Source: Akkermansia muciniphila (GTDB lineage Bacteria > Verrucomicrobiota > Verrucomicrobiia > Limisphaerales > JADLHS01). From it: a stretch of DNA of 56,853 nt. Numbering within the stretch: the first letter of the stretch is position 1; every line of letters starts with the position of its first letter. The stretch is taken from positions 1-56,853 of the forward strand of contig CAMCWI010000001.1 of NCBI GenBank assembly GCA_945882065.1, read 5' to 3'. Under the pieces are notes generated by a model. The model was given only the letters and a program-made list of their open reading frames with translations. It ran no database searches and was not told the DNA's origin. This document shows positions 788-55,191 of the stretch, in pieces. The position numbers were made by a program, and so were the translations under genes.

Positions 788-3700
788 ATGAGCCTCATTC
801 GCAACACTGGTCTCGCGTTTGCCATCCTGACTTTGACAACGGTTTCGCTTTTTTCCGCGCCGCAAACCGTCTGGCTGATCGGCGTGGATGAAGACCCGTT
901 GGCGGCGGGCTACAACGCCACAGATGAATTCTCGTCCGAAAATTACATCAACGATGCGCGCCCCGGCTCGGTCTATACCACGAACAATCCCGTCGTGGAC
1001 GACGACTTTTATTTCGAGGGAACTTATCTCAACGGTTTCAACGGACTCACCACAAATCGCACCGTCGCCATATCTGAGCCGAACCTCGGATGGGAACGCG
1101 CACTTACGGATGGTGATCGCACGAATCGAGTTCACTTCAACCTGAGCAGCGCGCAGGCGGGGGCGCAATCGCGGCTGCGACTGAGCTTTGAACTCGTCTG
1201 GGGCGGCGTGTGGTTGAGTTTATCCAACATGAGCGGTGAAGGCACTGGACTGCACGACATCACAGCTCGGTTAAAAAACAGCGCGGGCACAACCACGCTG
1301 CTCTATTCCAATCGCGTGGATCGCGACACGCGCATCATTCTGGATTTTCCTGCAGCGAGCGTAGCCGCGTCCGCTGGCGCGAACACGATTGAGATCGCGC
1401 GCGTCGGGCCGAACACCGCGAACGTCGGCTACTGGATTCAATTTGATTACGCGCAACTCGAAGCAGACACCAATGCGCTCGCGGATGCTGACGCAGACGG
1501 TCTCCCGCGCTGGTGGGAGGAAGACAACAATCTCAGTGACGTGAATGTCGCCGATGCCGCGAGCGACAAGGACGGCGATGGACGCACTGCGTTGCAGGAA
1601 TACAACGGCGGAAATAATTCTTCCAATCCCAATCGTGCCGATACGGACGGCGATGGTTTGAATGACGGCGCGGAGTTTGTCGTTGGCACAAATCCAAACA
1701 AGACCGATACGGACGGCGATTCCATCTCCGACGGCGATGAAGTGAACGGCTCGCCCGCATCGAATCCTTTGCTCGTGGATTCCGACACTGATGGCGCGCC
1801 GGATTCGCTGGAGCGTCGCGTCGGCACGAACCCAATGAGCGCGACGAACACGCCGACGATTTTCCGTGGCGGCATCGGGATTCATTTTGTTTCGCTCAAC
1901 GACATGAACGCCACGCTCGGCACGAACGAAACCACCGGCATCGTTCCGCAGACGCGTTGGAACGACACGTTGCCGATGAGTTGGGGTCGCACCAGCGGCA
2001 GCAAGGCGGACAGCCTCACGCCAGTCACGAATCAGATCGTCCGCAGCGATGGAGCGATTCTCAGCAACTTCACCTACACATGGACGGGCAATGCCGTTGA
2101 TGCGAGCCGCAATGCGGGTTCATCCGACCGCAAGTTGATGAGTGGTTACATCCGCGCCTACACCACGAATCAAGCGGCGCTCACGTTGAGCAACATCCCG
2201 TTCACAAACTATGATCTCTGCGTCATCGTCGGCGGTTCTTACGACGGACAGAAAGGTCGCATCCGTCTCGGCACGAACTCCGCCACCGACCAATTCTTCC
2301 GCACGCTTTCCACGCCGCAGCAGACGACATTTGTTGAGAGCGTCGCGGGCGTCACCAATTTCCCCTACGCCAACTTCGTGATCTACACGAACCTCACCAG
2401 CACCAATGCCACGCTCAACGTCACGAACTACGAAGGTTGGTCGCTCGGCATCTGCGCGGTGCAGATCGTGGATCGCAATCTCGATAGCGACGCGTCTGGC
2501 ATTCCTGATTGGTATGAGATGCGTCACGCGCTTGAACCGGGATCAATCGCGCTCGCCGCTGCAGACACCGATGGCGATGGCTTGAGCAACTCGCAGGAAT
2601 TTTTGCGCGGCAGCAATCCGCGTCTTGCCGACACTGACGGCGATGGGTTGAACGACAAAGTTGAAACCACCGCCAACGCTCTCAACCCTGACAGCGATGG
2701 CGATGGCTTGTCAGACGACGCGGAAGTGAACGCGCCTATCCCGACCAATCCGAATCTCGCGGACACCGACGGTGATGGCGTGAGTGACAAGGCTGAAAAA
2801 ATTCTCGGCACCGATCCGAATTACAATCCGACCAACAGCTCCACGTTCGTCGGCTATATTCCCTACTTCAAAAGTTCCCACACGAATTGGGAATGGAATC
2901 TGGAGAACGTGCAATTTGTCTGGGATCACGGCTCGGGCGCGTTCGCACCGAACATCTGGAACGAAGATTTCCTCGTGGACTTCGCAGTGAAGAATCCGGC
3001 GACCACCGAATGGCGCACGCTTGGCATGGCGTTGCGCTATTACAACGGCGGACTCACACACTTGTTCCACTCCGATGCGAACGGCGGTTTCAGTGCGCCA
3101 GGCCAACCGGGGACGGGTGCCTGGGATTCCGATTACGGCAATCCGCCTGCCGATCTGAAGGCAAAACTCGGTTTCAGCGGCTATGGCCCGGCGGATGTTT
3201 CGGACCGGCTCAAGTTCCGCGTGTTCGCCCAACGCGGCGCGGGCAATTCGTGGACGGTGAGTTTCACGATCACCAATCAAACGAGTAACACACTTGTCGT
3301 CTCTCGGTCCTACGCGAATTGCACCGCATCCGCTCTGGTGGACAACGGCACGGCGAAGTGGACGGACTACAACGGCGTGACCAATCAGCCGAGCATGAAC
3401 CTGCATCAGGGCGTGAGGATGTTCATCACCACGAACGCACTGGAAAATCTGCCCGCGTTCGCCAACGCCAAAGACTCCGATAACGACGGGATGCCTGACG
3501 TGTGGGAAGACGCGAATAGCTTGAACAAGTTTCTCGCCACAGACGCCACAAATCATCTCGACGGCGATGGGTTGATCAACCGCGATGAATTTCTCGCCGG
3601 AACAAATCCGCTCGTGACCGACACCGATGGCGACGGAATCAATGACGGACTTGAGCGCGCGAATTCATCGAACCCGCTGCTCGCGTCGAGCAGGCCTCCA

Positions 3701-5875
3701 TTCACCGGGCAGACGTGGCCGAGCGGTCAGGACTTGGATGGAAACGGTTTGGTTGACGCGTGGGAAGTGCGTTTCCGCGCGTTTGCTCTGCCACCGAACG
3801 GCGACGCGGATGGCGACGGCGCATCCAACGCGCAGGAAGCGAAGTGGGGCACGAATCCGTTTGATGCGAACTCCAAGATCGCTGTGTCGCTGACCAAGCA
3901 AACGAACAACGCCGTCGTGACGTGGCCTTATCAGTCGGCGAAAGATCAACGGCTGTTCACAAGCAGCACGCTCACGAACTGGACTCAGTTCGGCGGCGTG
4001 TCATGGCTGACTGGTAACGAGGTGTCCACAATTTTCACGAATCGTTTTGCGACCACGAACCGCGAGTTCTATCGCGTGTCCACTGACGATAAAGACACGG
4101 ACAGCGACGGCGTGAAGGATTGGGACGAGGCCGTGATCGGCAGCGATCCGCTCCGCGCCAACAGCACGCACACGAATGTTTCCATCATCGCCAACAACGG
4201 TTTGATTACTGGCACGGTGGCCGGCGACTTCGCGACATTCGTCGAGCAGATGCGCGGCGGACCCGGCGGCAGCACCACGGGGTTGGTCACGCGGGCGCAG
4301 GCGGCGCGGTTGCTCCAGCAGGCGACGTTCGGGCCGACGTTGCGTGAGATTGATCGTGTGCGACAACTAGGCATCGCGGCGTGGATTGACGATCAGATCA
4401 CGAACCAGCCAGCGTCGCTGCATCGGCCGTACATGGAAAAGATTTACGCGGACTTCAACGGCCCGCGCACCGACCTCACCTATCTTTTCAGCGAGATGGA
4501 TAATTTCATCTTTGGCAATAACTGCGTCACGCCGTTCGCGCGCGGCGCAGTGGCCGGGCCGGATCAGTTGCGGCAACGCGTGGCGTTTGTGTTGAGCCAG
4601 ATCTGCGTCGTGTCGCGGCGCGATCCGAATCTGGAAAACAAACCGCTCAGCGTTTCGGATTACTACGACATCTTCGTGCGGAATGCCTTTGGCAATTACT
4701 CCGATGTTTTGCGCGAGGTGACGTTCCATCCGGTGATGGGTCGTTACCTCAGTCACATCGGAAATCAAAAAGCGCGCCCAGAGATCAACCAGTATCCAGA
4801 TGAAAATTACGCGCGGGAAGTGCAGCAGTTGTTTAGCATCGGCCTCTGGGAGTTGAATCAGGGCGGCATGCGCCAACTCGATGGGTTTGACCAGCCAATC
4901 CCGACTTACGGCAACGCGCAGATCACAGAGTTCGCGCGCGTGTTCACGGGGCTGTGGTTCGGCGGTCAGGCTTGGGGCAACAACGGCTGGAGCGACGACG
5001 ACAGTTCCGTGCCGATGCAGATGTGGGCTGAGAAACACGACTTCGGCGCGAAGACGTTGTTGAACGGCTTCACAATTCCCGCCCGCGCTCCGACGGTCGA
5101 GAACGGCGTGCGTGATGTGGACGATGCGTTGCGAAATCTCTTCGAGCATCCGAACACAGCACCGTTCGTCAGCAAGCAACTGATTCAATTCCTTGTCACG
5201 AGCAATCCTTCGAGCAACTACGTCGCGCGCGTCGCGGCGAAGTTCACCAACGATGGCACGGGCAAGCGCGGCAATCTCGCGGCAGTCGTTAAAGCCATCC
5301 TGCTCGACGAAGAAGCTCGCGACGCGCGGTGGTTCTTGAGCGCGCTGGAGTTTGGGCGATTGAAAGAGCCGATTCATCGCGCATTGGCGATCACTCGCGC
5401 GGGCAACGTCGGGCGTTACACCAATCTACTCTGGTGGACGTGGGGCGAGTTCAACTCGGCGGCATTCCAGGAGCCGACGTATTCGCCGAGCGTGTTCAAC
5501 TTTTTCCGCCCCGGCTATCAACCGCCGGGCTTGCTCACGCTGAACGGACTCGTCGGTCCGGCGTTCCAGATCACGGATAGCTATTCGAGCATTTCGTTTC
5601 CGAACAAACTGTGGGAGATGACTCAGGACGGATTGAAGCATTACGGCGACTACCATTTTCCGCCGGACTACACCGAACTCTTGGCGCAGGCCGGGAGCGC
5701 GCCGCATTTGGTGGATCAAGTGAACTTGTTGTTCTGCGGTGGCTCGATGACTTACGCCACGCGCGACAGCATTCTGAACGTGCTCAACCAAGTGCCGTCG
5801 TACGACACGCTGTTGCGAACGCGCCTCGCCGTCTATCTCGCCGCGACGTGCCCGGAAGGAGCGGTGCAGAGATGA
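788..5875 (+). CDS. Giant secreted protein with an N-terminal beta-rich region, several thrombospondin type-3-like Ca-binding repeat clusters and a C-terminal DUF1800 domain
   Basis: The ORF is 1695 aa with ATG at 788 and signal peptide MSLIRNTGLAFAILTLTTVSLFSAP. DTDGDGLNDG-type DxDxDG repeats recur. The C-terminal ~530 aa (from about nt 4270) carry DUF1800-like strings LLQQATFGPT, ENYAREVQQLFSIGLWELN and HDFGAKTLLNG. A DUF1501 gene follows directly, which is the usual pairing. Confidence 0.85.
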   Translation: MSLIRNTGLAFAILTLTTVSLFSAPQTVWLIGVDEDPLAAGYNATDEFSSENYINDARPGSVYTTNNPVVDDDFYFEGTYLNGFNGLTTNRTVAISEPNLGWERALTDGDRTNRVHFNLSSAQAGAQSRLRLSFELVWGGVWLSLSNMSGEGTGLHDITARLKNSAGTTTLLYSNRVDRDTRIILDFPAASVAASAGANTIEIARVGPNTANVGYWIQFDYAQLEADTNALADADADGLPRWWEEDNNLSDVNVADAASDKDGDGRTALQEYNGGNNSSNPNRADTDGDGLNDGAEFVVGTNPNKTDTDGDSISDGDEVNGSPASNPLLVDSDTDGAPDSLERRVGTNPMSATNTPTIFRGGIGIHFVSLNDMNATLGTNETTGIVPQTRWNDTLPMSWGRTSGSKADSLTPVTNQIVRSDGAILSNFTYTWTGNAVDASRNAGSSDRKLMSGYIRAYTTNQAALTLSNIPFTNYDLCVIVGGSYDGQKGRIRLGTNSATDQFFRTLSTPQQTTFVESVAGVTNFPYANFVIYTNLTSTNATLNVTNYEGWSLGICAVQIVDRNLDSDASGIPDWYEMRHALEPGSIALAAADTDGDGLSNSQEFLRGSNPRLADTDGDGLNDKVETTANALNPDSDGDGLSDDAEVNAPIPTNPNLADTDGDGVSDKAEKILGTDPNYNPTNSSTFVGYIPYFKSSHTNWEWNLENVQFVWDHGSGAFAPNIWNEDFLVDFAVKNPATTEWRTLGMALRYYNGGLTHLFHSDANGGFSAPGQPGTGAWDSDYGNPPADLKAKLGFSGYGPADVSDRLKFRVFAQRGAGNSWTVSFTITNQTSNTLVVSRSYANCTASALVDNGTAKWTDYNGVTNQPSMNLHQGVRMFITTNALENLPAFANAKDSDNDGMPDVWEDANSLNKFLATDATNHLDGDGLINRDEFLAGTNPLVTDTDGDGINDGLERANSSNPLLASSRPPFTGQTWPSGQDLDGNGLVDAWEVRFRAFALPPNGDADGDGASNAQEAKWGTNPFDANSKIAVSLTKQTNNAVVTWPYQSAKDQRLFTSSTLTNWTQFGGVSWLTGNEVSTIFTNRFATTNREFYRVSTDDKDTDSDGVKDWDEAVIGSDPLRANSTHTNVSIIANNGLITGTVAGDFATFVEQMRGGPGGSTTGLVTRAQAARLLQQATFGPTLREIDRVRQLGIAAWIDDQITNQPASLHRPYMEKIYADFNGPRTDLTYLFSEMDNFIFGNNCVTPFARGAVAGPDQLRQRVAFVLSQICVVSRRDPNLENKPLSVSDYYDIFVRNAFGNYSDVLREVTFHPVMGRYLSHIGNQKARPEINQYPDENYAREVQQLFSIGLWELNQGGMRQLDGFDQPIPTYGNAQITEFARVFTGLWFGGQAWGNNGWSDDDSSVPMQMWAEKHDFGAKTLLNGFTIPARAPTVENGVRDVDDALRNLFEHPNTAPFVSKQLIQFLVTSNPSSNYVARVAAKFTNDGTGKRGNLAAVVKAILLDEEARDARWFLSALEFGRLKEPIHRALAITRAGNVGRYTNLLWWTWGEFNSAAFQEPTYSPSVFNFFRPGYQPPGLLTLNGLVGPAFQITDSYSSISFPNKLWEMTQDGLKHYGDYHFPPDYTELLAQAGSAPHLVDQVNLLFCGGSMTYATRDSILNVLNQVPSYDTLLRTRLAVYLAATCPEGAVQR
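1484..1834 (+). repeat. TSP3-like calcium-binding repeat cluster 1 (coding repeats inside the giant ORF)
   Basis: DADADGLPRWWE, DKDGDGRTALQE, DTDGDGLNDGAE, DTDGDSISDGDE and DSDTDGAPDSLE occur in tandem. Confidence 0.8.
2483..2823 (+). repeat. TSP3-like calcium-binding repeat cluster 2
   Basis: DSDASGIPDWYE, DTDGDGLSNSQE, DTDGDGLNDKVE, DSDGDGLSDDAE and DTDGDGVSDKAE occur in tandem. Confidence 0.8.
3473..3867 (+). repeat. TSP3-like calcium-binding repeat cluster 3. A further single copy lies at about 4085-4153.
   Basis: DSDNDGMPDVWE, HLDGDGLINRDE, DTDGDGINDGLE, DLDGNGLVDAWE and DADGDGASNAQE occur here, followed later by DTDSDGVKDWDE. Confidence 0.75.
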
Positions 5876-5996
5876 AAAGCCGGACTTCAAATACCCAATT
5901 ACCCAAGCACCCCAATACCGAACCGTTGTGCGGCTTGGGTGATTGGGTATTGGGGTGTTTCGGTCTTGGGTATTTTCAATTAACCACAGAAGAAGC

Positions 5997-7469
5997 ATGA
6001 ACCACCCCACTTCCATTTCACGTCGAAGCTTTCTCAAACAACTCAACTGCGCCGCCGTCGGTTCTTCTGCGATCCTCAACACGTTGCTCAATCTCAAGCT
6101 CGCCAACAGCGTCGCTGCGCAGGGTGGCCCGCTCGACAACAAGGCTCTCGTCTGCATTTTTCTCAGCGGCGGCATGGACTCGTTCAACGTCCTCGTGCCG
6201 TGGGAACAGTCTGCCTACAACACTTACTCCGTCACGCGCGGCGCATTCGGCAGCGACGGCGGACTCGCGTTGGATCGCAATGTTCTCCGCCAACTCTCCG
6301 AGCCATCCGCAAACTATGGTCTGCATCCGTCATGCGCGAACTTGCAGGCGATGGCGAATGGCACCGGCCCATTCGCAGGCAAACGTCGGCTCGCGTTCGT
6401 CTCGAACATCGGCACGCTCGTGCAGCCGATCACCAAGGCGCAGTTCAACGCATGGGAAAATGGAAACAACGCTGCGCTACCAGTGCCCAAGGCGCTGTTC
6501 TCGCACAGCGACCAGATCGAGCAATGGCAGACGGCAGTGCCGCAGGGTCAGGCGCAGTTGAGCGGCTGGGCTGGACGCTGCTCGGATATTTTGCATGCCT
6601 ACTACAACACGCCCGGCAATTCGATGAGCATTTCGCTCGGCGGCAACAATGTGTTTCAAGTCGGCAACTCCACGCAGCAGTTTGTCATCACGCCCTCCGG
6701 CGCGTTGTCGTTCGAGGGCAATACCGGCGGCACGAATCCGAATCCGCTCCAACTTAAAAATTCCGCGCTGCAAAACACGCTCAACCAGCATTACACGAAT
6801 CTGCTCACGGAAAGTTTTTCGAAGCTCACCAAGCAGAGCAACGATGCACAGTTGCTTTTCCAGACGCAGTTCGATTCCGTAAACGCGCAACTCGGCGGTG
6901 CTGTGGACGCGTTGTTCCCGGCGAGCAATTACCTCGCCACCACGCTCAAGGCTGTGGTGAAGACGATCAAAATTCGCAGCCTGCTGGGATTAAAGCGCCA
7001 GACATTCTTCGTCAACTACGGTGGCTGGGATCATCACGGTGAGTTGCTCAACACGCAGGCCGGAATGCTCTCGACGCTCGACACCGCCATCGGCGCGTAT
7101 CAGCAAGCACTCGAAATGCTCGGCCTTCAAAACGACGTGGTGTCGTTCAGTGCGTCGGATTTCAGCCGCACGCTGCGCTCGAACGGGCGCGGCACGGATC
7201 ACGCATGGGGCGCGAATGCGATGGTCTTCGGCGGGAAGGTGGACGGCGGAAATATCTTCGGCACATATCCCGACCTCACGCTCGATGGGCCGAATGATGT
7301 GGGGCGCGGCGGGCGATTGCTGCCGAGCCTGTCGGCGGATTTGTATTTCGCGGAATTACTCCGCTGGTTTGGCGTGTCGTCCGGCAACATGCCTTACGTG
7401 CTGCCGAACGTGGCGAACTTCTGGAATCCGACTTCGGTCACGCCGCCAATCGGGTTTGTGTTGCCGTGA
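5997..7469 (+). CDS. DUF1501 domain protein (sulfatase/alkaline-phosphatase-like fold) with a Tat signal
   Basis: ATG at 5997 gives MNHPTSISRRSFLKQLNCAAVGSS, a twin-arginine motif. DUF1501-like strings FLSGGMDSFN, GGWDHHG and RGTDHAWG are present. It lies downstream of a DUF1800 gene. The track start at 5943 is a TTG upstream of the signal peptide and is less likely. Confidence 0.9.
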   Translation: MNHPTSISRRSFLKQLNCAAVGSSAILNTLLNLKLANSVAAQGGPLDNKALVCIFLSGGMDSFNVLVPWEQSAYNTYSVTRGAFGSDGGLALDRNVLRQLSEPSANYGLHPSCANLQAMANGTGPFAGKRRLAFVSNIGTLVQPITKAQFNAWENGNNAALPVPKALFSHSDQIEQWQTAVPQGQAQLSGWAGRCSDILHAYYNTPGNSMSISLGGNNVFQVGNSTQQFVITPSGALSFEGNTGGTNPNPLQLKNSALQNTLNQHYTNLLTESFSKLTKQSNDAQLLFQTQFDSVNAQLGGAVDALFPASNYLATTLKAVVKTIKIRSLLGLKRQTFFVNYGGWDHHGELLNTQAGMLSTLDTAIGAYQQALEMLGLQNDVVSFSASDFSRTLRSNGRGTDHAWGANAMVFGGKVDGGNIFGTYPDLTLDGPNDVGRGGRLLPSLSADLYFAELLRWFGVSSGNMPYVLPNVANFWNPTSVTPPIGFVLP

Positions 7470-8604: not shown

Positions 8605-8967
8605 CTATTCGCCCCTGAAAACCGCGCGCGCGGTGCAGGTTTCGGCAACAACAACCTCAGTCAGCATCGGCAACTTCGGCTTCAGCTTTCGCCAAATCCA
8701 CGCGGCCACGACTTCGCTCGTGGGATTTTCCAAGCCGGGAACCTTGTTGAGATAATTGTGATCCAGTTTTTCCCAGAGCGGTTTGAAGGCTTTCGAAATG
8801 TCGGCATAATCCATCAGCCAGCCAAGCTTGGGATCGCACTCACCTGCGACGACGATCTCCACCTTGAAGCTGTGGCCGTGCAGTCGGCGACACTTGTGAA
8901 CCTTCGGCAAACGAGGCAACAAATGCGCCGCCTCAAACTGAAATGATTTTCTTAGTTCCATCTTCAT
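8605..8967 (-). CDS. queD: 6-carboxy-5,6,7,8-tetrahydropterin synthase (6-pyruvoyl-tetrahydropterin synthase family)
   Basis: The 120-aa product contains FEAAHLLP, CRRLHGHSFKVEIVVAG, GWLMDYADI and LDHNYLN, the classical QueD/PTPS zinc-site and fold motifs. Confidence 0.92.
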   Translation of the reverse strand: MKMELRKSFQFEAAHLLPRLPKVHKCRRLHGHSFKVEIVVAGECDPKLGWLMDYADISKAFKPLWEKLDHNYLNKVPGLENPTSEVVAAWIWRKLKPKLPMLTEVVVAETCTARAVFRGE

Positions 8968-8979
8968 AAAATATTCAAC

Positions 8980-9055
8980 CTGCTGGATGTGTGGATTATT
9001 AGATAAGTGGATTTGCTTCTCTGGTAGTCCATCTACTAATCCAATTATCCAGCAG
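8980..9055 (-). other. AT-rich imperfect hairpin of 76 nt between the luxC-like stop and the queD start
   Basis: CTGCTGGAT (8980-8988) pairs with ATCCAGCAG (9047-9055). The inner arm TGGATTATTAGAT (8992-9004) pairs with ATCTACTAATCCA (9031-9043) with one mismatch. No U-tract follows on the transcribed strand, so it is not a canonical terminator. Confidence 0.4.
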
Positions 9056-9074
9056 TCAGCCTATCCGTTTTCCT

Positions 9075-10439
9075 TCATCCCTGCTCCCAATCCATCCACG
9101 TCACCAGATCGCCCAGCGCCGGGCGACCGTCATGCCGCCACGTCAGCGGCGGGTTCTGCATCTGACCTAGTGGACAAACTCGCTTCGCCCCCCAGCGCGC
9201 GAGTTGAGTAGCAATTTCCCCGGCGCGATGCTCCGGCACGGCGATGCCAACGGTAGAAACCTGCGCACGCACGAAGTCCGCGTTTTGCAAAACATCTTCC
9301 AGCCCTGCGACCGGTTTCACGTAGATGAATCTATGCAGGCAGGAGAGTTGGAATCTCGCATCAGCCTCGCACACCACAGTCCACGCCGTCGAGTCGTTGC
9401 TCTTCCAAACATGCGTGGATGCAGAATATGCCGCGCGCAACTCATAGATCGCCCGGCGCGATGCGATGTGTGCGGCGATTTCCTGCCGTGCGACACCGCG
9501 AGGTTCAATGCTTTCGCGACGCGCCAATTGCTCCGCTAGTTGGCGGGCGAATTCTTCTGGCGAACTGTGTCCGCCGTTTTGCACATAGAAAACATGTGGC
9601 GAGAGACAGCCGAGTTGATCCCACGCCGTCACGTCGTCGGCAGCGCGGACGATGACCTTGCGTGTGTTGTGTTCGGTCAACACATCTGCCGCCACGTAGC
9701 CAAAGCTGACGCGATGGCCGTAGGCCAAAAATCTGACGCGCTGCGGGAGGCGTTTTTGAATTGTCTCCAAAGTCTCGTCGCTGCCCGTAGTCGTGACGCA
9801 ATCCGCCTCCGCAAACAACACGTCCTCCAACGCCACATTTCCACCCTGCCACTCCGCGATCTCGATGCACGCCGCGAGCTTCGGATCGTATTCGTAGATC
9901 GAGTGAGCGAATAATCGCGGCAGCAGACTCGTGCCACTCGCACACTTCACGAACTGCGCCGAGCGCGTCAGCAACCCCAGCACCATGCTCATCAACGTCG
10001 GATTCGGGATATTGCCCGCCGCAATGTGGACGAGAAACTCCGGGCCAACCGCGATGGCTGCGCGACTCGTCTGTTGTTCAACTTCCGCGCTGCACAATTG
10101 ATCCAACCTCCGCACATCACCCATATCCTGTTTGATCAAGGCATAGAAATTTTCCACTGTGAGTTGGCGGAAGAATCCGTCCAGTCCGCTCGCCAACGTC
10201 TCGCGACTGAACCCCAACACCGCCGAGCCATGATCCAGTGCTAGCCTGCGGAATCTGTTGTCCTCATTCAGCCACTCCGCCGCCACACCTGAGAGCGTCC
10301 TGATGATTTGATCCGTCGAGCGGCGCACCAGATAGCTCTCGCGATTGCGCTTCAACGTGGCGCACGCTTCGGTTAACAAAGCAGGCGAGATCGTCGCCTC
10401 CTTCGGCAAGTCTGCGAGAAAGTACTCAGGCAGATTCAT
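9075..10439 (-). CDS. LuxC-family acyl-CoA (fatty acyl) reductase homologue
   Basis: The 454-aa product has HIAAGNIPNPTLMSMVLGLL, FVKCASG and WDQLGCLSPHVFYV, the ALDH-superfamily nucleophile context with its Cys codon at 9606-9608. Its start overlaps the MFS stop in ATGA (10436-10439). Confidence 0.8.
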   Translation of the reverse strand: MNLPEYFLADLPKEATISPALLTEACATLKRNRESYLVRRSTDQIIRTLSGVAAEWLNEDNRFRRLALDHGSAVLGFSRETLASGLDGFFRQLTVENFYALIKQDMGDVRRLDQLCSAEVEQQTSRAAIAVGPEFLVHIAAGNIPNPTLMSMVLGLLTRSAQFVKCASGTSLLPRLFAHSIYEYDPKLAACIEIAEWQGGNVALEDVLFAEADCVTTTGSDETLETIQKRLPQRVRFLAYGHRVSFGYVAADVLTEHNTRKVIVRAADDVTAWDQLGCLSPHVFYVQNGGHSSPEEFARQLAEQLARRESIEPRGVARQEIAAHIASRRAIYELRAAYSASTHVWKSNDSTAWTVVCEADARFQLSCLHRFIYVKPVAGLEDVLQNADFVRAQVSTVGIAVPEHRAGEIATQLARWGAKRVCPLGQMQNPPLTWRHDGRPALGDLVTWMDWEQG

Positions 10440-11677
10440 TTCGTCGCCTCCAATCGCTCGCGTTTCCGAAGCGTGTTTAATCCAATCAACCCCAACAGCG
10501 AGATCACCACGAAGGCCGCCATGCCGTAGTAGAGCGGAAAATAACCCTCGATGGTTTCCGCGCTCTTGCCGAGCCGCTTCACGGCATCACCAGCGATCCA
10601 GTGCGAGAGATTTCCGAGCAAACCACCGATGGTGATGAACAATCCGAACACCCGCCCGCGCACTGCGTCCGGCACGGACTCCATCAACATCGCCTCCACC
10701 ATCGGATAACTAGCCATGAAGAAAAATCCGTAGAGCAACAGTGTCGGGATCGCCCACGACTTCGGCACATGCGGAAACACCGCGATCAATACCGTGGCGA
10801 TGAGCAGCACAGACGCCGTCCAACGTTTGCGCCCGCCATCGCTCAGGTGACCGAACAGCGGATTGCTGATCGCGCTCGGCAGAAAGATGCAACTGATCAC
10901 CACGCCTGTGAACGCGATGCTGTAACCATGAGCCTGTTGCAAAAACAGCGATCCCAAGCTGCCCATGCTCGTGCCCGCGAAATCACGCAGACAAAACGCA
11001 AACGCACTCGCCATGAAAACAATCCACAATGCGCTCGTCGGGAAAACTTTCTGCGCGGGCGCATCTGCATTCCGAGTTTTTTGCGACGGCTTTTCCTCGT
11101 CAGCAAGCCACGCAAACAAGATCGCCGCCACGATCCCAAGCAAGCCGAACTCAAGCACTGGACGCCGCCACGCCGCTGCACCAAGCGTCGCCTCCAACGC
11201 GCCCGCACGCCAACCCGCGTAGATCGGCCCGATGAAAAACCCCACGCTTGCGCCCATGCCGATAAAACCGAGCGCACGCCCCGTATTATTCGGATACATG
11301 CGCGCGATCATCGCCGTGGCCGCCGGGTGATAACAACTGCCGCCCATTCCCGCCACGATCACCGCCGCAAGAGCGCACGGATAATTTGGCGCGAACGACA
11401 ACGCAGTGAATCCGAGCGCATTGATCAACAATCCCCATGCGAGAAGTTTTTTCCGGCTCACGCGGTCGGCGAGTATTCCTAGAAAATAACTCGGCAGGAA
11501 ATACGCGATCATCATCACGGTCACCAGTGCGGTGGCGTGGCCGACATTCGCGAAACCAAAGTCGCGCTGCATGAGCAGATACAGCGGCAACAACGCCACA
11601 TGATAGATGTGCGTGAACGCGTGCAACGCACCAACCATCCAGAGAGCGCGTGTTTTGTGTCGTGTGTCTGTGGTCAT
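10436..11677 (-). CDS. MFS transporter (about 12 TM)
   Basis: The sequence is hydrophobic throughout and carries the MFS loop motif LGILADRVSRKKLL. The preferred start is the ATG at 11677 (MTTDTRHKTRALWMVGALHAF), which overlaps the upstream stop in ATGA (11674-11677). The track start at 11743 would overlap the upstream gene by 70 nt. Confidence 0.85.
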   Translation of the reverse strand: MTTDTRHKTRALWMVGALHAFTHIYHVALLPLYLLMQRDFGFANVGHATALVTVMMIAYFLPSYFLGILADRVSRKKLLAWGLLINALGFTALSFAPNYPCALAAVIVAGMGGSCYHPAATAMIARMYPNNTGRALGFIGMGASVGFFIGPIYAGWRAGALEATLGAAAWRRPVLEFGLLGIVAAILFAWLADEEKPSQKTRNADAPAQKVFPTSALWIVFMASAFAFCLRDFAGTSMGSLGSLFLQQAHGYSIAFTGVVISCIFLPSAISNPLFGHLSDGGRKRWTASVLLIATVLIAVFPHVPKSWAIPTLLLYGFFFMASYPMVEAMLMESVPDAVRGRVFGLFITIGGLLGNLSHWIAGDAVKRLGKSAETIEGYFPLYYGMAAFVVISLLGLIGLNTLRKRERLEATK

Positions 11678-12381
11678 TTGTCTTTTGGCAATGGAAACTC
11701 CGCGAGACGTTTCTTGATCTCTAGATACAACGTCTCCGTCCACGGCGGCAGCTTCGCGTTTTCAGGTAAAGTTTTCCCGGCGCGGAAATCCACCGGCGCG
11801 ATGATCACCGTCATATTCTCGATCTTTGTATCCGCCGCGAGGACGAACAATTCCTCTGCCGCTTCGTCACCCATCGCGAGACATCCGACCGAGAGTGCTT
11901 TTCCGTGAATCATGATGTCGCCGCCGAGATTCGTGCGGCCTTCCTTCGCGGCTTGCCCGCGATCAAATGAGTTTGGATAACCGATGCGCATCGAGAGATG
12001 ATAACTGCTGTTCGGATTCAACAACTCGATGGCGTAAATTCCTTCCGGCACTTGCTTGTCGCCTTGGCGAAGTTTCGGCCCGGCCACACCACTGCCCGCC
12101 TGGATCGGATACGAGCGGACGAATGTGAAGTTGTTCGTCCCCGACCTCGCATACACTTGGAAACATTTCTCCTCCTTCAATCCGATGAACATGAGCGCGC
12201 TCGGCGGATAGGCAACAGATGCATTGGTGAAATGCGGCGCAAGGCGCACGCGCGCGTTCGTACCGTATTGTGCGAGACGATCCTCAATCGTTGCTGCGCT
12301 CATTGGTGCTTGATTGAACAACGCTGTCATCGCCACAACGCCTGCCAGAGTTTGTTGAGTGTTCATAGATTTTAATTTCAT
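11674..12381 (-). CDS. Secreted L,D-transpeptidase catalytic-domain (YkuD-fold) protein
   Basis: The signal peptide is MKLKSMNTQQTLAGVVAMTALFNQAPMSAA. The YkuD active-site pattern is IMIHGKALSVGCLAMG (His...Ser-x-Gly-Cys). The start overlaps the luxE-like stop in ATGA (12378-12381). Confidence 0.85.
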   Translation of the reverse strand: MKLKSMNTQQTLAGVVAMTALFNQAPMSAATIEDRLAQYGTNARVRLAPHFTNASVAYPPSALMFIGLKEEKCFQVYARSGTNNFTFVRSYPIQAGSGVAGPKLRQGDKQVPEGIYAIELLNPNSSYHLSMRIGYPNSFDRGQAAKEGRTNLGGDIMIHGKALSVGCLAMGDEAAEELFVLAADTKIENMTVIIAPVDFRAGKTLPENAKLPPWTETLYLEIKKRLAEFPLPKDK

Positions 12382-13493
12382 GCCGCCGTGAGCGAACAGC
12401 CACGAGGTACAGCCATCGCCGCGCGCCCAAGCAATTCAAAACCATCGCCACACCGAACAGCCAAGTCTTCCGTCTGGATCGCCATCACAGAAAAAACATT
12501 CGCCAAGTCCACGATGGAGAGGATGCCGGTTTCGCCGTCGCTCACTTCATTGCCCGTCTCAGCCGAAATGACGCGCGCCCGCGCCCACGGCGGGAAGCGA
12601 AACGCGCGATCACGCTTTAGGCTTTGATACGCCTGCGAACTCAACTCACTCATCCCGTATTCGCAGATGATGTGTGACATCGGCACGCCGAGATGTTTTG
12701 TGATGAGCGAGTGCAACTCCACTTTCGGCATCGTGCGCGAGCGACCTTTGTAGCCGCCTGTTTCCAGCACGCGCGATTCTGCCGCAAGTTGCAGCCGAAG
12801 ATTCTGCGCCACCAATTCGTCCAGCAGATGCACGAAGGAGAACGCCGTTCCCACGACGAGCAATGGTTTGTCACCCGGCTGCTTCAATGCCGCCAGTGCT
12901 GCACCAAAGTCCACAGTCCAAACTCCATCCGTACCCACACGACCCACGAACGCGCGTTCATCCGCGCCCATCTTCTGCCGCGCGTAGTCAAACATGTGGA
13001 CCAGTGACGAGTGCGGCACTTGCCTCGCAGGCGGCGTGAAACTCAGCAATTGTAAATCGGCAATCGTAAATCGTAAATTCTCCCGAAGCCACGGCCAGAG
13101 CGATGCCTCATAAACCTTCAGCGTCTCGGCATTGTGAAAGTGCTGGCTCGGTTGCTGCGCCGTTGTGCCGCTCGAATGGAACACGCGCGTCCGATCTTCT
13201 GGCGACAGGCTGGTCATCTCAAACTCCTTGAACGCCGCCGTGGGCACAGTTGGGATTTGCGGCCAATGAGTGACATCGCTAGGAGTCACGCCGCGAGCGG
13301 TGCAAAGTTTGCGATAGGGTTCGTTGTGTGCAAACTGAAGCGTGAACAGCATCAACGCGAGTCCGTTGAACTCAACATCCACATGACGCGCGAGGTGGGG
13401 ATCAACAGCCCCTGGCGACGAAGCAAGCTCCTCACACCAAATGCCAATGTGTTCGCGCAGTCGCGCGGCGAAAATGGAAAGTTCCGATGTCAT
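12378..13493 (-). CDS. LuxE-family acyl-protein synthetase (adenylate-forming) homologue
   Basis: The ~371-aa product from the ATG at 13493 (MTSELSIFAARL) has FHSSGTT, ETGGYKGRS and ICEYGMSELSSQAY, the adenylate-forming core. A Cys six residues from the C-terminus (codon 12396-12398) recalls the acylated C-terminal Cys of LuxE. The track start at 13568 adds 25 Arg/Leu-rich residues and is less likely. Confidence 0.78.
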   Translation of the reverse strand: MTSELSIFAARLREHIGIWCEELASSPGAVDPHLARHVDVEFNGLALMLFTLQFAHNEPYRKLCTARGVTPSDVTHWPQIPTVPTAAFKEFEMTSLSPEDRTRVFHSSGTTAQQPSQHFHNAETLKVYEASLWPWLRENLRFTIADLQLLSFTPPARQVPHSSLVHMFDYARQKMGADERAFVGRVGTDGVWTVDFGAALAALKQPGDKPLLVVGTAFSFVHLLDELVAQNLRLQLAAESRVLETGGYKGRSRTMPKVELHSLITKHLGVPMSHIICEYGMSELSSQAYQSLKRDRAFRFPPWARARVISAETGNEVSDGETGILSIVDLANVFSVMAIQTEDLAVRCGDGFELLGRAAMAVPRGCSLTAA

Positions 13494-13641: not shown

Positions 13642-14514
13642 ATGCAAGACGTACAAGAGCTTCCAGAATTGAAAGTCCCCAAGTGGCCGTTCTTTGTCGC
13701 AGACGGTTTCATGCTAGGGCTGGCTTACTTTCTTTTTTATTATCAAGCCAAGCTCCCGCTCACGCGCTGGGAGGTCAGCGCCTGCGTCGTTTGCGTCACG
13801 CTCGCCGCCATTCTCGGCATCCTGCCTTACCTGCTGGAATATCGCGCGGTGATCAAATATGGCGCACTCATCAAGCTCATTGAAACCAGTTCGCTCCGTG
13901 AAGCTACCGACAAAATCCAAAACCTGGAAAGTTGCGTCGCACAGATCAGCAGCGCTTCCGATCAACTCCAGTCAGCGCAAGTGGCGGCAGACAAGACCGC
14001 AGGCCTTGCAAGCGACATGACCGACCGCATGGCCAAAGAGGTGCGCGAGTTCACGGCCTTCATGCAGAAGGCGAACGATGGCGAGAAATCCACGTTGCGC
14101 TTGGAAGTGGAAAAACTCCGCCGCGCAGAAAACGAATGGCTCAACGTGCAGGTGTTCACGCTCGATCACATCTTCGCTCTGAACCGCGCAGCATCTCGAT
14201 CCGGTCAACCAAATCTCGTCGCGCAGCTCTCTCATTTTCAGGACGCGTGTCGCGATGCCGCACGTCGCGTCGGCCTCGTTCCGGTGTTAGCCGCGACGGG
14301 TGAAGCGTTCGACACGGTGCGGCATCAATTGGCGGAAGGTCAAACGGCGGCGGCGGGCGCAACAGTCATGGAAGTCATCGCAGCGGGTTATTCGTTTCAA
14401 GGCAAGCTCGTGCGCCCGGCTCTGGTGCAGTTGCAAGGTGACGCAACGCCCGCAGCGACCACGGAGGCGACACCAAGTCAGTTGAGTTTTGACACGACGG
14501 ATGCTGCGACATGA
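13642..14514 (+). CDS. Membrane-anchored coiled-coil protein with a GrpE-like C-terminal domain
   Basis: The N-terminus has two hydrophobic helices (WPFFVADGFMLGLAYFLFYY and VSACVVCVTLAAILGILPYLL). A coiled-coil region follows. The C-terminus matches the GrpE pattern: LDHIFALNRAA (GrpE lDnleRA), GLVPVLAATGEAFDTVRHQ (G...i...G..FDP..H.A) and AGYSFQGKLVRPALVQL (GY....r.lRPA.V.V). Confidence 0.6.
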   Translation: MQDVQELPELKVPKWPFFVADGFMLGLAYFLFYYQAKLPLTRWEVSACVVCVTLAAILGILPYLLEYRAVIKYGALIKLIETSSLREATDKIQNLESCVAQISSASDQLQSAQVAADKTAGLASDMTDRMAKEVREFTAFMQKANDGEKSTLRLEVEKLRRAENEWLNVQVFTLDHIFALNRAASRSGQPNLVAQLSHFQDACRDAARRVGLVPVLAATGEAFDTVRHQLAEGQTAAAGATVMEVIAAGYSFQGKLVRPALVQLQGDATPAATTEATPSQLSFDTTDAAT

Positions 14515-21723: not shown

Positions 21724-21801
21724 GATTGAGTTGCGGTGAAGAGAAAAAGGGTGAATTCGAGGAGGACGAACTGACCCCATGCTCAGATTGTTTTTACAGA
21801 A

Positions 21802-33435: not shown

Positions 33436-33469
33436 GGTTTGACGAGTAACGGTGGAGGTCTTCACGAAT

Positions 33470-39899: not shown

Positions 39900-39908
39900 A
39901 ATAGTCTC

Positions 39909-44316: not shown

Positions 44317-44707
44317 AGTTTTGTTACGGCTCTTGTTAATCGAATTCACGCTCCAAGTCCACCCTCACAAACAAAGCCTAGGGAGACCGCCGTATTCAGA
44401 TGTTTCTTTGCTCGCGGTTATTCAGGAATTCACCTGAGCGTTTTCAGAGACACGCACATATCTCTTACTTCTCGCTAAATTCTAAAGCGACACAGTGCAT
44501 TTCAATCGCGATGAGATCGTTTTTAGGGCGGAACATCTAGCTGCACAAATTGGAAACTTTTTCTACTGGCTTTGGTGAACACTCCACACGACAGACGGTG
44601 TATCAAATCCTTTGAGACCTTCATCACCCTAAAACACTGCTCAGTTCACTAACCGCACCGCAACCTGTCAAACAAGACTTGTTGAAGCGGGGGAAAATGG
44701 ATTCCCT

Positions 44708-49541: not shown

Positions 49542-49563
49542 AAGCGTCAGAGTTTGCTGGGAA

Positions 49564-54675: not shown

Positions 54676-54744
54676 TTGGAAATTGGGAAAACGATTCGTT
54701 AGATTGTGCAAAGAAACCTCACTGACTGCCATAACTCATTCGAG

Positions 54745-55179: not shown

Positions 55180-55191
55180 AGCTGGATGCGT

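What the first reader, a model, noticed from the sequence alone, without database searches (positions are those of the whole stretch)
9075..13493. Translationally coupled luxE-like / L,D-transpeptidase / MFS / luxC-like operon without luciferase genes
All three internal junctions are ATGA start/stop overlaps (12378-12381, 11674-11677 and 10436-10439). The four proteins are therefore almost certainly made together.

LuxE and LuxC form the fatty-acid reductase of luminous bacteria, in which acyl-AMP formation, acyl transfer and NADPH reduction yield an aldehyde. Here there is no luxA, luxB or luxD. The pair instead brackets a secreted YkuD-fold L,D-transpeptidase (IMIHG...SVGC) and a 12-TM MFS.

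The catalytic hallmarks survive. The LuxC-like protein has Cys in WDQLGCLSPH (9606-9608). The LuxE-like protein has a Cys six residues from its C-terminus (12396-12398).

The architecture suggests that a cytoplasmically activated or reduced acyl chain is passed across the membrane and used in the envelope, for example for lipid or peptidoglycan-linked modification. The pairing of an acyl-activating enzyme with an MFS recalls lplT-aas lysophospholipid recycling. I know of no described pathway with this gene set.
Basis: partly seen in the sequence, partly recalled or inferred. Interest (0 to 1): 0.68.

Follow-up and report, generated by a model that had tools for sequence, protein, structure and literature searches.

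The report
LuxE/LuxC carboxylate reductase operon with QueD
The four overlapping genes are real, but the part kept in related bacteria is a LuxE/LuxC-type acid-to-aldehyde reductase pair followed by the queuosine gene queD, which hints (without proof) at an undescribed step in 7-deazaguanine (queuosine) metabolism rather than a lipid or cell-wall pathway.

Summary
Four minus-strand genes (LuxE-like, YkuD-fold, MFS, LuxC-like) join through three ATGA overlaps. Both reductase proteins match LuxE and LuxC, not generic ligases or aldehyde dehydrogenases, and keep the catalytic residues.

In 66 species-level Limisphaerales loci, 44 have LuxE directly next to LuxC, 14 add the MFS, and 5 have the full set. 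The YkuD-fold protein is a YafK/DpaA-type amidase relative. The MFS is nearest to NorA-type exporters, not among LplT-like hits. Both co-diverge with LuxC, so they look ancestral and repeatedly lost: accessory genes, not core.

It follows luxC in 91 of 94 loci and often overlaps it.

More distant LuxE/LuxC pairs sit beside queD, queE or queG. Three of them also sit beside a class-III aminotransferase.

My best reading is a two-protein ATP- and NADPH-dependent carboxylate reductase. It probably acts on a small heteroaromatic acid, most likely 7-carboxy-7-deazaguanine, on a route to preQ1 that bypasses QueC and QueF.

The chemistry is well supported (about 0.8). The substrate rests on gene neighbourhood alone (about 0.3). 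Whole-genome queC/queF profiles could not be obtained.

The parts
12378..13493 (-). LuxE-like acyl-protein synthetase, 371 aa. It has an adenylating ANL N-domain and no ANL C-subdomain. The inferred self-acylation site is Cys366 in the C-terminal RGCSLTAA tail. Lys249 and Arg357 match Lys238 and Arg355 of P. phosphoreum LuxE.
   Evidence: PF04443 scores 53.4 bits. The only PDB sequence hit is 7xc6_E, E 4.6e-11. K249, R357 and G365-C366-S367 are invariant in a cross-phylum alignment. The roles of these residues come from PMC9157457. The motif GG[YWF]K is present in 130/130 orthologues, and the [KR]GCS[LIVM] tail in 122/142.
11674..12381 (-). YafK/DpaA-like YkuD-fold protein, 235 aa. A Sec-type signal peptide is inferred from the sequence. 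The catalytic residues are His159 and Cys167. It is an accessory gene.
   Evidence: PF03734 scores 26.7 bits. NCBIfam LdtF_DpaA_YafK scores 86 bits, below its cut-off of 365. The best PDB hit is 8IKR, E. coli DpaA, E 1.6e-18. It is present in only 6 of 66 species-level loci. All 3 close homologues looked up lie in the same operon position.
10436..11677 (-). It is an accessory gene.
   Evidence: PF07690 scores 148 bits. The best PDB hit is NorA, E 9e-13. It is present in 19 of 66 species-level loci. The junction with luxC is ATGA-type in 41/50 loci.
9075..10439 (-). LuxC-like acyl-thioester reductase, 454 aa, with catalytic Cys278 in the motif DQLGCLSPH. It lacks the C-terminal oligomerisation/cleft segment of luminous LuxC.
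   Evidence: PF05893 scores 240.8 bits. The 7xc6_A alignment covers Cys and the HDG motif. The AlphaFold model has pLDDT 96, and its best fold match is 7xc6_A at TM 0.81. The Cys motif is present in 167/167 orthologues.
8968..9074 (-). luxC-queD spacer, 107 nt, holding a long imperfect hairpin (arms 8980-9004 and 9031-9055). No terminator-like or promoter-like consensus site was listed in this spacer.
   Evidence: The inverted repeat has 25-nt arms that are 84% complementary. The RNA fold is -30.9 kcal/mol with z = -3.3. Other loci have hairpins of different sequence in the same spacer, or no spacer at all: 34 have ATGA overlaps. The consensus scan of the region gave no more hits than shuffled sequence.
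8605..8967 (-). queD, encoding 6-carboxy-5,6,7,8-tetrahydropterin synthase, 120 aa, with the CxxxHGH motif. It is the conserved third core gene of the operon.
   Evidence: PF01242 scores 121 bits. The TIGR03367 QueD equivalog scores 105.2 bits, above its cut-off of 89.25. It follows luxC in 91/94 evaluable loci and overlaps luxC by 4 nt in 34 loci.

Best explanation
The window holds the full, probably ancestral five-gene form of an operon found throughout Limisphaerales (Verrucomicrobiota): luxE-like, yafK-like, MFS, luxC-like, queD.

**Core.** luxE-luxC-queD is kept in almost all of the related loci examined.

**Mechanism**
1. LuxE-like adenylates a carboxylic acid (ATP to acyl-AMP).
2. It moves the acyl group onto Cys366 of its own flexible C-terminal RGCS tail.
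3. It hands the acyl group to Cys278 of LuxC-like.
4. NADPH reduces the thioester to a free aldehyde.

These steps are inferred from conserved catalytic residues and the 7XC6 precedent. Nothing was assayed here.

**Substrate.** It is most likely not a long-chain fatty acid. I favour a small polar heteroaromatic acid from the 7-deazaguanine/pterin branch that QueD starts. My preferred candidate is 7-carboxy-7-deazaguanine (CDG), reduced to 7-formyl-7-deazaguanine. A class-III aminotransferase, encoded next to the pair in other phyla, could convert that aldehyde to preQ1. Such a route would bypass QueC and QueF. This rests on gene neighbourhood only.

**Accessory genes.** The MFS probably moves the same class of base. 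The periplasmic YafK-like cysteine amidase has no established link to the reductase. Both are accessory genes that have been lost many times.

**Likelihoods.** Reductase chemistry about 0.8. Core/accessory operon structure about 0.9. Link to queuosine or 7-deazaguanine about 0.3-0.35.
For: **Family and residues**
- Pfam, PDB sequence search and fold search all point to LuxE/LuxC.
- Residue roles are taken from PMC9157457.

**Core versus accessory**
- In 94 evaluable loci the architectures are E--CQ 60, E-MCQ 16, EYMCQ 12 and EY-CQ 3 (E = LuxE, Y = YkuD, M = MFS, C = LuxC, Q = QueD).
- At species level, 66 loci give 44, 14, 5 and 1 for the same four architectures.
- Outer flanks vary and are housekeeping genes.
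- YkuD and the MFS co-diverge with LuxC (r = 0.81 and 0.70, against 0.71 for LuxE). Their patchy distribution needs at least 14 and 13 changes on the LuxC tree. Together this indicates vertical descent with repeated loss.

**Link to queuosine genes**
- queD is a true QueD equivalog. It overlaps or abuts luxC in about 50 loci.
- A lineage with LuxC 48% identical keeps luxC-queD without an adjacent luxE.
- A lineage at 40% identity has queE and an aminotransferase 2-4 kb upstream of luxE-luxC.
- NC10 bacteria have queG-aminotransferase-luxE-luxC in a row on one strand.
- Ca. Manganitrophus has luxE-luxC-aminotransferase with overlapping junctions.
- So three different queuosine genes appear in at least three separate arrangements.

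**Against a long-chain substrate**
- The C-terminal cleft segment is missing, and the distal cleft residues L107/W111/M114 align to S/G/R.
- More distant LuxE-LuxC-SDR cassettes (32-39% identity) carry a xanthine/uracil permease, or an ABC transporter with an NMT1/THI5-like binding protein.

**Transporter precedent**
- An MFS protein has been shown experimentally to carry preQ0 and preQ1 (PMC11130926).
Against: - No assay was done, and no whole-genome queC/queF presence or absence data could be obtained.
- Limisphaerales loci hold no aminotransferase, queE or queG within about 8 kb. The window has no other que gene.
- Synteny within one order can persist without any functional link.
- queE in L170 is separated from luxE by two opposite-strand genes.
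- Other relatives show no que gene. L167 has thiamine-related and thioesterase neighbours. The Manganitrophus locus has none within 8 kb. The plasmid cassettes have none.
- The adjacent aminotransferases are ArgD/LysJ-like, which also fits reduction of an amino-acid-type carboxylate.
- No preQ1 riboswitch is present.
- The cleft-residue mapping lies in a moderately confident stretch of a 21%-identity alignment.
- The YafK-like gene has no role in this model.
Confidence: 0.4

Rival explanations
1. **The first reader's model.** A cytoplasmically activated or reduced acyl chain is exported by the MFS. The YkuD-fold enzyme then uses it in the envelope for a lipid or peptidoglycan-linked modification, by analogy with LplT-Aas.
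For: - The four genes are translationally coupled here, and the Y/M and M/C overlaps are conserved.
- The closest YkuD homologues looked up (3 of 3) all sit in this operon.
- The MFS is nearest to exporters of the NorA type.
- L,D-transpeptidase-fold enzymes can exchange amines onto peptidoglycan stem peptides (general knowledge, not tested here).
Against: - YkuD and the MFS are missing from most orthologous operons, while LuxE, LuxC and QueD persist. The reductase product therefore has a role that needs neither.
- The YkuD protein carries DpaA-type hydrolase features: Lys83, Gln86, Tyr109 and Ala145 equivalents.
- LplT is not among the 25 best transporter families, and the operon has no acyltransferase.
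- The LuxC-like protein lacks the long acyl cleft segment.
Confidence: 0.1
2. **Ordinary fatty-acid reductase.** LuxE/LuxC make fatty aldehydes, or alcohols after further reduction, for waxes, ether lipids or signalling. queD, yafK-like and the MFS are merely co-transcribed neighbours.
For: - The only characterised members of both families act on myristate.
- Public records name the homologues 'acyl-CoA reductase' and 'long-chain fatty acid-CoA ligase'.
- One relative sits beside a 4HBT thioesterase and accBC.
Against: - Scores against the NCBIfam LuxE and LuxC equivalogs are far below the cut-offs: 56 against 550, and 83 against 750.
- The cleft segment is absent and the distal hydrophobic residues are not conserved.
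- No LuxD, ACP or fatty-acid-synthesis genes lie nearby.
- The transporters in related cassettes are of nucleobase or pyrimidine type.
- Queuosine genes recur next to the pair in separate lineages.
Confidence: 0.15
3. **Other small-acid salvage or biosynthesis, unrelated to queuosine.** The pair reduces an amino-acid-type carboxylate to a semialdehyde that is then transaminated (ArgB/ArgC/ArgD or LysZ/LysY/LysJ logic). Alternatively it reduces an oxidised vitamin fragment, such as the thiamine pyrimidine carboxylate. The queD adjacency would be inherited synteny.
For: - Adjacent aminotransferases are ArgD/LysJ/putrescine-aminotransferase-like, and are 52% identical between NC10 and Nitrospirota.
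- Distant cassettes pair LuxE-LuxC with an SDR and with THI5/NMT1-like binding proteins or a xanthine/uracil permease.
- L167 has thiE, a PfkB kinase and thiF around luxC.
Against: - It does not explain why queD, queE and queG, three genes of one pathway, appear next to the pair in different lineages.
- Limisphaerales loci contain no aminotransferase or SDR.
Confidence: 0.25

Closest known systems
Bacterial bioluminescence fatty-acid reductase LuxC-LuxE (P. phosphoreum, PDB 7XC6)
   Same: - Same two protein families.
- The LuxE-like protein has no ANL C-subdomain and has a short Cys-bearing tail: RGCSL here, against KGCxLS in the luminous enzyme.
- Lys/Arg pair, LuxC catalytic Cys and HDG motif conserved.
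- Best fold match, TM 0.81.
   Different: - Only about 21% identity, far below the equivalog cut-offs.
- No luxA, luxB, luxD or luxG.
- LuxC-like lacks the P460-P488 oligomerisation/cleft segment, and the distal hydrophobic cleft residues are not conserved.
- The conserved partner is queD.
LuxE/LuxC homologues in non-luminous gene clusters (Aeromonas group II flagellin glycosylation islands; plasmid LuxE-LuxC-SDR cassettes of Pantoea, Azospirillum, Priestia and L. plantarum)
   Same: - A LuxE-LuxC pair with no luciferase, as an adjacent pair that overlaps or abuts in the plasmid cassettes, and with a transporter beside it in three of the four plasmid cassettes.
- The window's LuxC is much closer to the plasmid cassette proteins (32-33% identity, E about 1e-57 to 1e-65) than to luminous LuxC.
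   Different: - Those clusters add an ACP and glycosyltransferases, or an SDR plus a nucleobase/THI5-type transporter.
- None of the four plasmid cassettes examined has queD, a YafK-like gene or an MFS between luxE and luxC (for the Aeromonas islands I rely on the paper's gene list, which names none).
- I know of no assay of any of them; the Aeromonas paper offers only a suggested role.
Canonical preQ1 synthesis: QueC (CDG to preQ0) and QueF (preQ0 to preQ1)
   Same: - The proposed start and end compounds are the same, CDG and preQ1.
- Both routes use ATP to activate the carboxylate, NADPH, and a covalent cysteine intermediate.
- Both cluster with queD, queE or queG.
   Different: - The protein families are unrelated.
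- The proposed route runs through an aldehyde plus a transamination, instead of a nitrile.
- It is purely inferred here. No paper in the searched library links LuxC to queuosine or mentions 7-formyl-7-deazaguanine.
DpaA/YafK (E. coli, PDB 8IKR), a cysteine amidase that detaches Braun lipoprotein from meso-DAP
   Same: - Best and only strong PDB hit, E 1.6e-18.
- His/Cys catalytic motif, and Lys83, Gln86, Tyr109 and Ala145 equivalents conserved.
- Single domain of about 235 aa with a signal peptide.
   Different: - Below the NCBIfam equivalog cut-off, 86 against 365.
- Arg108, Lys130 and Tyr131 are not conserved, and there is an insertion before the catalytic loop.
- It is embedded in a cytoplasmic reductase operon.
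- Whether these bacteria have an Lpp homologue was not examined.
LplT-Aas lysophospholipid recycling
   Same: An MFS gene lies next to a gene for an adenylating, acyl-activating enzyme.
   Different: - The MFS is nearest to NorA/DHA1, and its best NCBIfam matches do not include LplT.
- There is no acyltransferase domain.
- LuxE-type enzymes acylate their own cysteine, not ACP.
- The MFS is absent from most orthologous operons.

Membership tests
LuxE acyl-protein synthetase family (PF04443) | Profile match above the curated threshold, with no better match to generic AMP-binding or PaaK-type families | tested here: met
   PF04443 scores 53.4 bits against a cut-off of 24.9, and no other Pfam family reaches E 0.01. 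The only PDB sequence hit is LuxE 7xc6_E.
LuxE acyl-protein synthetase family (PF04443) | The ANL C-terminal subdomain is replaced by a tail of about 20 residues with a conserved acylation cysteine (TRxxKGCxLS). The Lys238/Arg355 pair is present. | tested here: met
   The protein is 371 aa and ends ...GRAAMAVPRGCSLTAA. K249, R357, G365, C366 and S367 are invariant across 13 sequences from several phyla. The feature definition comes from PMC9157457.
Luminous LuxE and LuxC orthologues (NCBIfam equivalogs NF052244 and NF052251) | Score above the equivalog cut-off, and membership of a luxCDABE operon | tested here: not met
   Scores are 56.1 against a cut-off of 550, and 82.8 against 750. No Pfam family resembling luciferase or LuxD appeared in the window ORFs scanned.
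LuxC acyl-thioester reductase family (PF05893) | Profile match, catalytic cysteine, and a fold closer to LuxC than to aldehyde dehydrogenases | tested here: met
   PF05893 scores 240.8 bits. Cys278 aligns with the catalytic Cys. The model (pLDDT 96) matches 7xc6_A at TM 0.81 and rmsd 2.3 A, against ALDHs at TM 0.70 or less.
LuxC acyl-thioester reductase family (PF05893) | C-terminal oligomerisation segment (P460-P488) that closes the >40 A hydrophobic L-shaped cleft for a C14 chain | tested here: not met
   The alignment ends at query residue 452 of 454, opposite chain residue 447 of 477, so no counterpart exists. L107, W111 and M114 align to S, G and R. This rests on sequence alignment only.
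YafK/DpaA subfamily of YkuD-fold enzymes | YkuD domain with the catalytic His...SxGC motif, DpaA-type Lys83/Gln86/Tyr109, and Ala in place of the transpeptidase Arg after the Cys | tested here: met
   PF03734 scores 26.7 bits. The 8IKR alignment shows GPKLRQGD, SSYH, MIHG...SVGCLAM. The feature list comes from PMC10653827.
YafK/DpaA subfamily of YkuD-fold enzymes | NCBIfam equivalog score, and the DpaA-specific residues Arg108, Lys130 and Tyr131 | tested here: not met
   NF040599 scores 86.1 bits against a cut-off of 365. Arg108 aligns to Ser, and Lys130/Tyr131 align to Gly/Asp after a 5-residue insertion.
QueD (6-carboxytetrahydropterin synthase) | Equivalog score and the CxxxHGH catalytic/zinc motif | tested here: met
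   TIGR03367 scores 105.2 bits against a cut-off of 89.25. The motif HKCRRLHGHSF is visible in the translation.
Queuosine/7-deazaguanine biosynthesis (as a pathway member) | Recurrent clustering with que genes in independent lineages | tested here: inconclusive
   queD is adjacent in 91/94 loci and in a second lineage. queE lies nearby in L170. queG is adjacent in NC10. No que gene appears in L167, L180 or the plasmid cassettes.
Queuosine/7-deazaguanine biosynthesis (as a pathway member) | Complementary phyletic pattern with queC/queF, and activity on CDG | not testable with these tools
LplT-type lysophospholipid MFS | Best match to LplT, and pairing with an Aas-type acyltransferase/acyl-ACP synthetase | tested here: not met
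   The best NCBIfam matches are PgtP, the D-galactonate transporter, EmrB and Tet-type transporters. LplT is not in the top 25. The best PDB hit is NorA. The operon has no acyltransferase domain.

The most novel reading that the evidence does not exclude
LuxE-like and LuxC-like form a 7-carboxy-7-deazaguanine reductase. Together with a class-III aminotransferase they make preQ1 through 7-formyl-7-deazaguanine. This would be a complete non-orthologous replacement of QueC and QueF in Limisphaerales, NC10, some Nitrospirota and others.

In the ancestral five-gene form, the MFS and the periplasmic YafK-like cysteine amidase would add a salvage branch. That branch would bring in the same acid, for example by hydrolysing an external 7-amido-7-deazaguanine-type amide and importing the product.
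Probability: 0.2. Interest if true: 0.85.

Novelty: new variant of a known kind. Interest (0 to 1): 0.6.

Why it matters
**Scale of the family.** LuxC/LuxE-type pairs outside luminous bacteria form a very large family. I found 3,280 clusters at 50% identity. I found no published assay of any of these non-luminous pairs.

**What this locus adds.** In one bacterial order the pair is a conserved core operon with queD. In other phyla the pair sits beside queE, queG and an aminotransferase.

**If the inferred link holds.** The preQ1 stage of queuosine synthesis is treated in the literature I read as requiring QueD, QueE, QueC and QueF (PMC11130926). It would then have a second, chemically different route through an aldehyde and a transamination. 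That would change how queuosine producers and queuosine users are called from genomes. It would also provide a natural two-protein carboxylate reductase for heteroaromatic acids.

**If the link fails.** The result still corrects the picture. The YkuD and MFS genes are optional passengers of a LuxE-LuxC-QueD core, not the centre of an envelope-acylation pathway.

Tried and rejected
**Searches that added little or nothing**
- Reaching distant LuxC relatives with a profile and a metagenome scan returned only the same Verrucomicrobial clade. I sampled distant contexts one by one instead.
- Viral collections gave no relatives in IMG/VR and one weak phage hit that I did not pursue.
- Rfam gave no riboswitch or other RNA family in the window or the operon.
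- Promoter and terminator consensus scans were no better than shuffled sequence.
- Literature searches found nothing linking LuxC/LuxE to queuosine, nothing on 7-formyl-7-deazaguanine, and no carboxylic acid reductase in queuosine papers. Two papers that mention LuxC/LuxE use them only as reporters or primers.
- Outer-neighbour clustering found no further conserved partner, only housekeeping genes.
- Small ORFs next to distant pairs share no homology with each other.

**Could not be run**

**Ideas considered and set aside**
- The LplT-Aas analogy.
- Repeated horizontal insertion of YkuD and the MFS. Their co-divergence with LuxC argues for descent plus loss.
- LuxC acting to detoxify the acetaldehyde by-product of QueD. 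The flux seems too low, and the idea does not explain LuxE.

Full report
**1. Observation**

The four ORFs lie on the minus strand as described:
- LuxE-like, 13493-12378
- YkuD-fold, 12381-11674
- MFS, 11677-10436
- LuxC-like, 10439-9075

Reading the sequence shows ATGA start/stop overlaps at 12381-12378, 11677-11674 and 10439-10436. Pfam assigns PF04443 LuxE (53 bits), PF03734 YkuD (27 bits), PF07690 MFS_1 (148 bits) and PF05893 LuxC (241 bits). All are above their curated cut-offs, and no AMP-binding or aldehyde dehydrogenase (ALDH) family competes.

The overlaps are conserved in related loci. The YkuD/MFS junction is ATGA-type in 12 of 13 loci and the MFS/LuxC junction in 41 of 50.

**2. 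Identity of the reductase pair**

Against all PDB sequences, the LuxC-like protein hits only LuxC (7xc6_A) and the LuxE-like protein hits only LuxE (7xc6_E).

The residues that the 7XC6 study found critical are present:
- LuxC catalytic Cys (Cys278 here) and the HDG motif.
- LuxE Lys238 and Arg355 (Lys249 and Arg357 here).
- The acylation Cys in a short tail, RGCSLTAA here against KGCxLS in the luminous enzyme.

These motifs are near-universal in the orthologues.

They are not orthologues of the luminous enzymes. Identity is about 21%, and the NCBIfam equivalog scores are 56 against a cut-off of 550, and 83 against 750. The LuxC-like protein ends where the luminous enzyme begins its P460-P488 segment. 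That segment closes the >40 A hydrophobic cleft for myristate. The distal cleft residues L107, W111 and M114 align to S, G and R. This part rests on sequence alignment and is only moderately confident.

**3. The two inner genes**

The YkuD-fold protein's only strong solved relative is E. coli DpaA/YafK (8IKR, E 1.6e-18). DpaA is a cysteine amidase that detaches proteins from meso-DAP. The His/Cys motif and the DpaA-type Lys83, Gln86, Tyr109 and Ala145 are conserved. Arg108, Lys130 and Tyr131 are not. The protein scores below the YafK equivalog cut-off. An N-terminal signal peptide is apparent from the sequence.

The MFS is closest to NorA/DHA1 transporters. LplT is not among its 25 best NCBIfam matches.

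**4. Comparative genomics within the clade**

LuxC-like has thousands of close relatives in Verrucomicrobiota, of the Limisphaerales/Pedosphaera type. I mapped the window's proteins onto 166 related loci. In the 94 with enough flanking DNA, the architectures are as follows (E = LuxE, Y = YkuD, M = MFS, C = LuxC, Q = QueD):

| Architecture | Loci |
|---|---|
| E--CQ | 60 |
| E-MCQ | 16 |
| EYMCQ | 12 |
| EY-CQ | 3 |
| No queD | 3 |

Restricted to GTDB species representatives (66 loci), the counts are 44, 14, 5 and 1, plus 2 without queD.

They are not random insertions, however.
- They always occupy the same position and order.
- All 3 close YkuD homologues that I looked up sit in this operon, with differing outer flanks.
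- Pairwise identities of YkuD and the MFS track those of LuxC (r = 0.81 and 0.70) as well as LuxE does (r = 0.71).
- Their patchy distribution needs at least 14 and 13 changes on the LuxC tree.

The simplest history is an ancestral five-gene operon with many independent losses of the two inner genes.

**5. The overlooked partner**

The gene after luxC is a true queD. It scores 105 bits on TIGR03367 against a cut-off of 89, and has the CxxxHGH motif. It follows luxC in 91 of 94 loci. It overlaps luxC by 4 nt in 34 loci and lies within 20 nt in another 14 to 15.

In the window the spacer is 107 nt and folds into a long hairpin. Other loci have hairpins of different sequence in the same place.

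The outer neighbours are variable housekeeping genes: MetRS, MutY, MscS, FtsA/FtsZ, RNase HII and an FMN reductase. None is present in more than 38 of 167 loci. The window's own flanks are likewise unrelated. The conserved unit is therefore luxE-luxC-queD.

**6. Distant relatives**

The LuxC-like family is large: 3,280 clusters at 50% identity. The contexts I sampled are listed below.

| LuxC identity to the window | Lineage | Arrangement |
|---|---|---|
| 48% | unnamed | clpC, then luxC-queD-ahpC; no luxE within 10 kb upstream |
| 40% | unnamed | queE, an 80-aa ORF, class-III aminotransferase, two opposite-strand genes, luxE-luxC |
| 38% | NC10 | queG-aminotransferase-luxE-luxC on one strand |
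| 36% | Ca. Manganitrophus | luxE-luxC-aminotransferase, overlapping |
| 44% | unnamed | 4HBT thioesterase-luxC beside thiE and a PfkB kinase |

The 40% lineage's queE scores 298 bits on TIGR04349. The NC10 queG scores 389 bits against a cut-off of 200.

The NC10 and Manganitrophus aminotransferases are 52% identical to each other. They are ArgD/LysJ/putrescine-aminotransferase-like and fall below every equivalog cut-off.

On plasmids of L. plantarum, Priestia, Pantoea and Azospirillum (LuxC 32-39% identical), the pair is followed by an SDR. It is also joined to a xanthine/uracil permease, or to an ABC transporter whose binding protein is NMT1/THI5-like.

**7. Mechanism**

*Supported by conserved residues and precedent:* LuxE-like adenylates a carboxylate, thioesterifies its own tail cysteine, and transfers the acyl group to Cys278 of LuxC-like. 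NADPH then releases the aldehyde.

*Inferred from context:* in this subfamily the aldehyde is next reduced (SDR cassettes) or transaminated (aminotransferase cassettes). The substrates are probably small heteroaromatic acids and not fatty acids.

For the Limisphaerales clade, the recurrent queD, queE and queG neighbours point to the 7-deazaguanine branch. CDG reduced to 7-formyl-7-deazaguanine and then transaminated to preQ1 is chemically exact and would bypass QueC and QueF.

An MFS has been shown experimentally to carry preQ0 and preQ1 (PMC11130926). The operon's MFS could plausibly move such a base. The YafK-like amidase has no established link to the reductase.

I put the chemistry at about 0.8, the core/accessory structure at about 0.9, and the queuosine link at about 0.3-0.35.

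**8. Weaknesses**

- Limisphaerales loci carry no aminotransferase, queE or queG within about 8 kb.
- Synteny within one order can be inherited without function.
- Some distant relatives have no que gene nearby.
- ArgD-like aminotransferases also fit an amino-acid-type substrate.
- No preQ1 riboswitch is present.

**9. Comparison with what is known, and novelty**

LuxC/LuxE pairs without luciferase genes are already on record, for example in Aeromonas flagellin glycosylation islands. The bare pattern is therefore not new.

Three things are new:
- the order-wide luxE-luxC-queD core;
- the optional YafK-like and MFS inner genes;
- the cross-phylum association with queuosine genes and aminotransferases.

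I found no publication on any of these. I rate the finding as a new variant of a known kind. It carries a testable and potentially important hypothesis.

Noticed in passing
window 8980-9055 (luxC-queD spacer): There is a long imperfect hairpin with 25-nt arms (dG -30.9 kcal/mol, z -3.3). Many related loci have hairpins built from different short repeated motifs in the same spacer. Others have no spacer at all. The element could be a lineage-variable attenuator or an mRNA-processing or stabilising element.
   Followed up: partly
L173 1624-6321; L174 5796-11632; L175 5790-9137; L176 5757-11598: Plasmid-borne LuxE-LuxC-SDR cassettes occur in L. plantarum, Priestia megaterium, Pantoea dispersa and Azospirillum lipoferum. 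They are coupled to a xanthine/uracil permease, or to an ABC transporter with an NMT1/THI5-like binding protein. This suggests uptake of a pyrimidine- or nucleobase-like carboxylic acid and its reduction to an alcohol. I know of no assay of these cassettes.
   Followed up: partly
L167 1805-7374: In one relative (44% identity) luxC follows a 4HBT thioesterase, a PfkB-family kinase, thiE and accBC. No luxE was detected nearby. The context therefore differs within the same family.
   Followed up: no
L180 6937-10552 and L179 4344-9374: A class-III aminotransferase, 52% identical between Nitrospirota and NC10, is fused into the luxE-luxC operon. In NC10 it is preceded by queG. This looks like a carboxylate-to-amine module.
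   Followed up: partly
window 13642-14514 (+): The divergently transcribed neighbour is a 290-aa protein with a hydrophobic N-terminus and a weak GrpE-domain match (34 bits). It is conserved only in the closest related locus (L003).
   Followed up: no
window 788-7469 and 38439-43550: Two PVC-typical gene pairs are present. One is a 1,695-aa DUF1800 protein with bacterial TSP3 repeats next to a DUF1501 protein. The other is a PSCyt1/PSCyt2/PSD1 protein next to a second DUF1501 protein.
   Followed up: no
window 48333-56085: A UPF0261 protein and a PEP-hydrolase-like protein flank a 1,722-aa DUF7133/ThuA/cytochrome c protein. Four separate proteins in the window carry a 3-keto-disaccharide hydrolase domain (19618-21780, 31981-33531, 43558-44349).
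   Followed up: no
L006, L007, L029, L033, L037, L040, L075: Several MAG records titled 'uncultured Bifidobacterium' or 'uncultured Bifidobacteriaceae' carry this Verrucomicrobial operon at 61-74% LuxC identity. The record titles look like mislabelled taxonomy.
   Followed up: no
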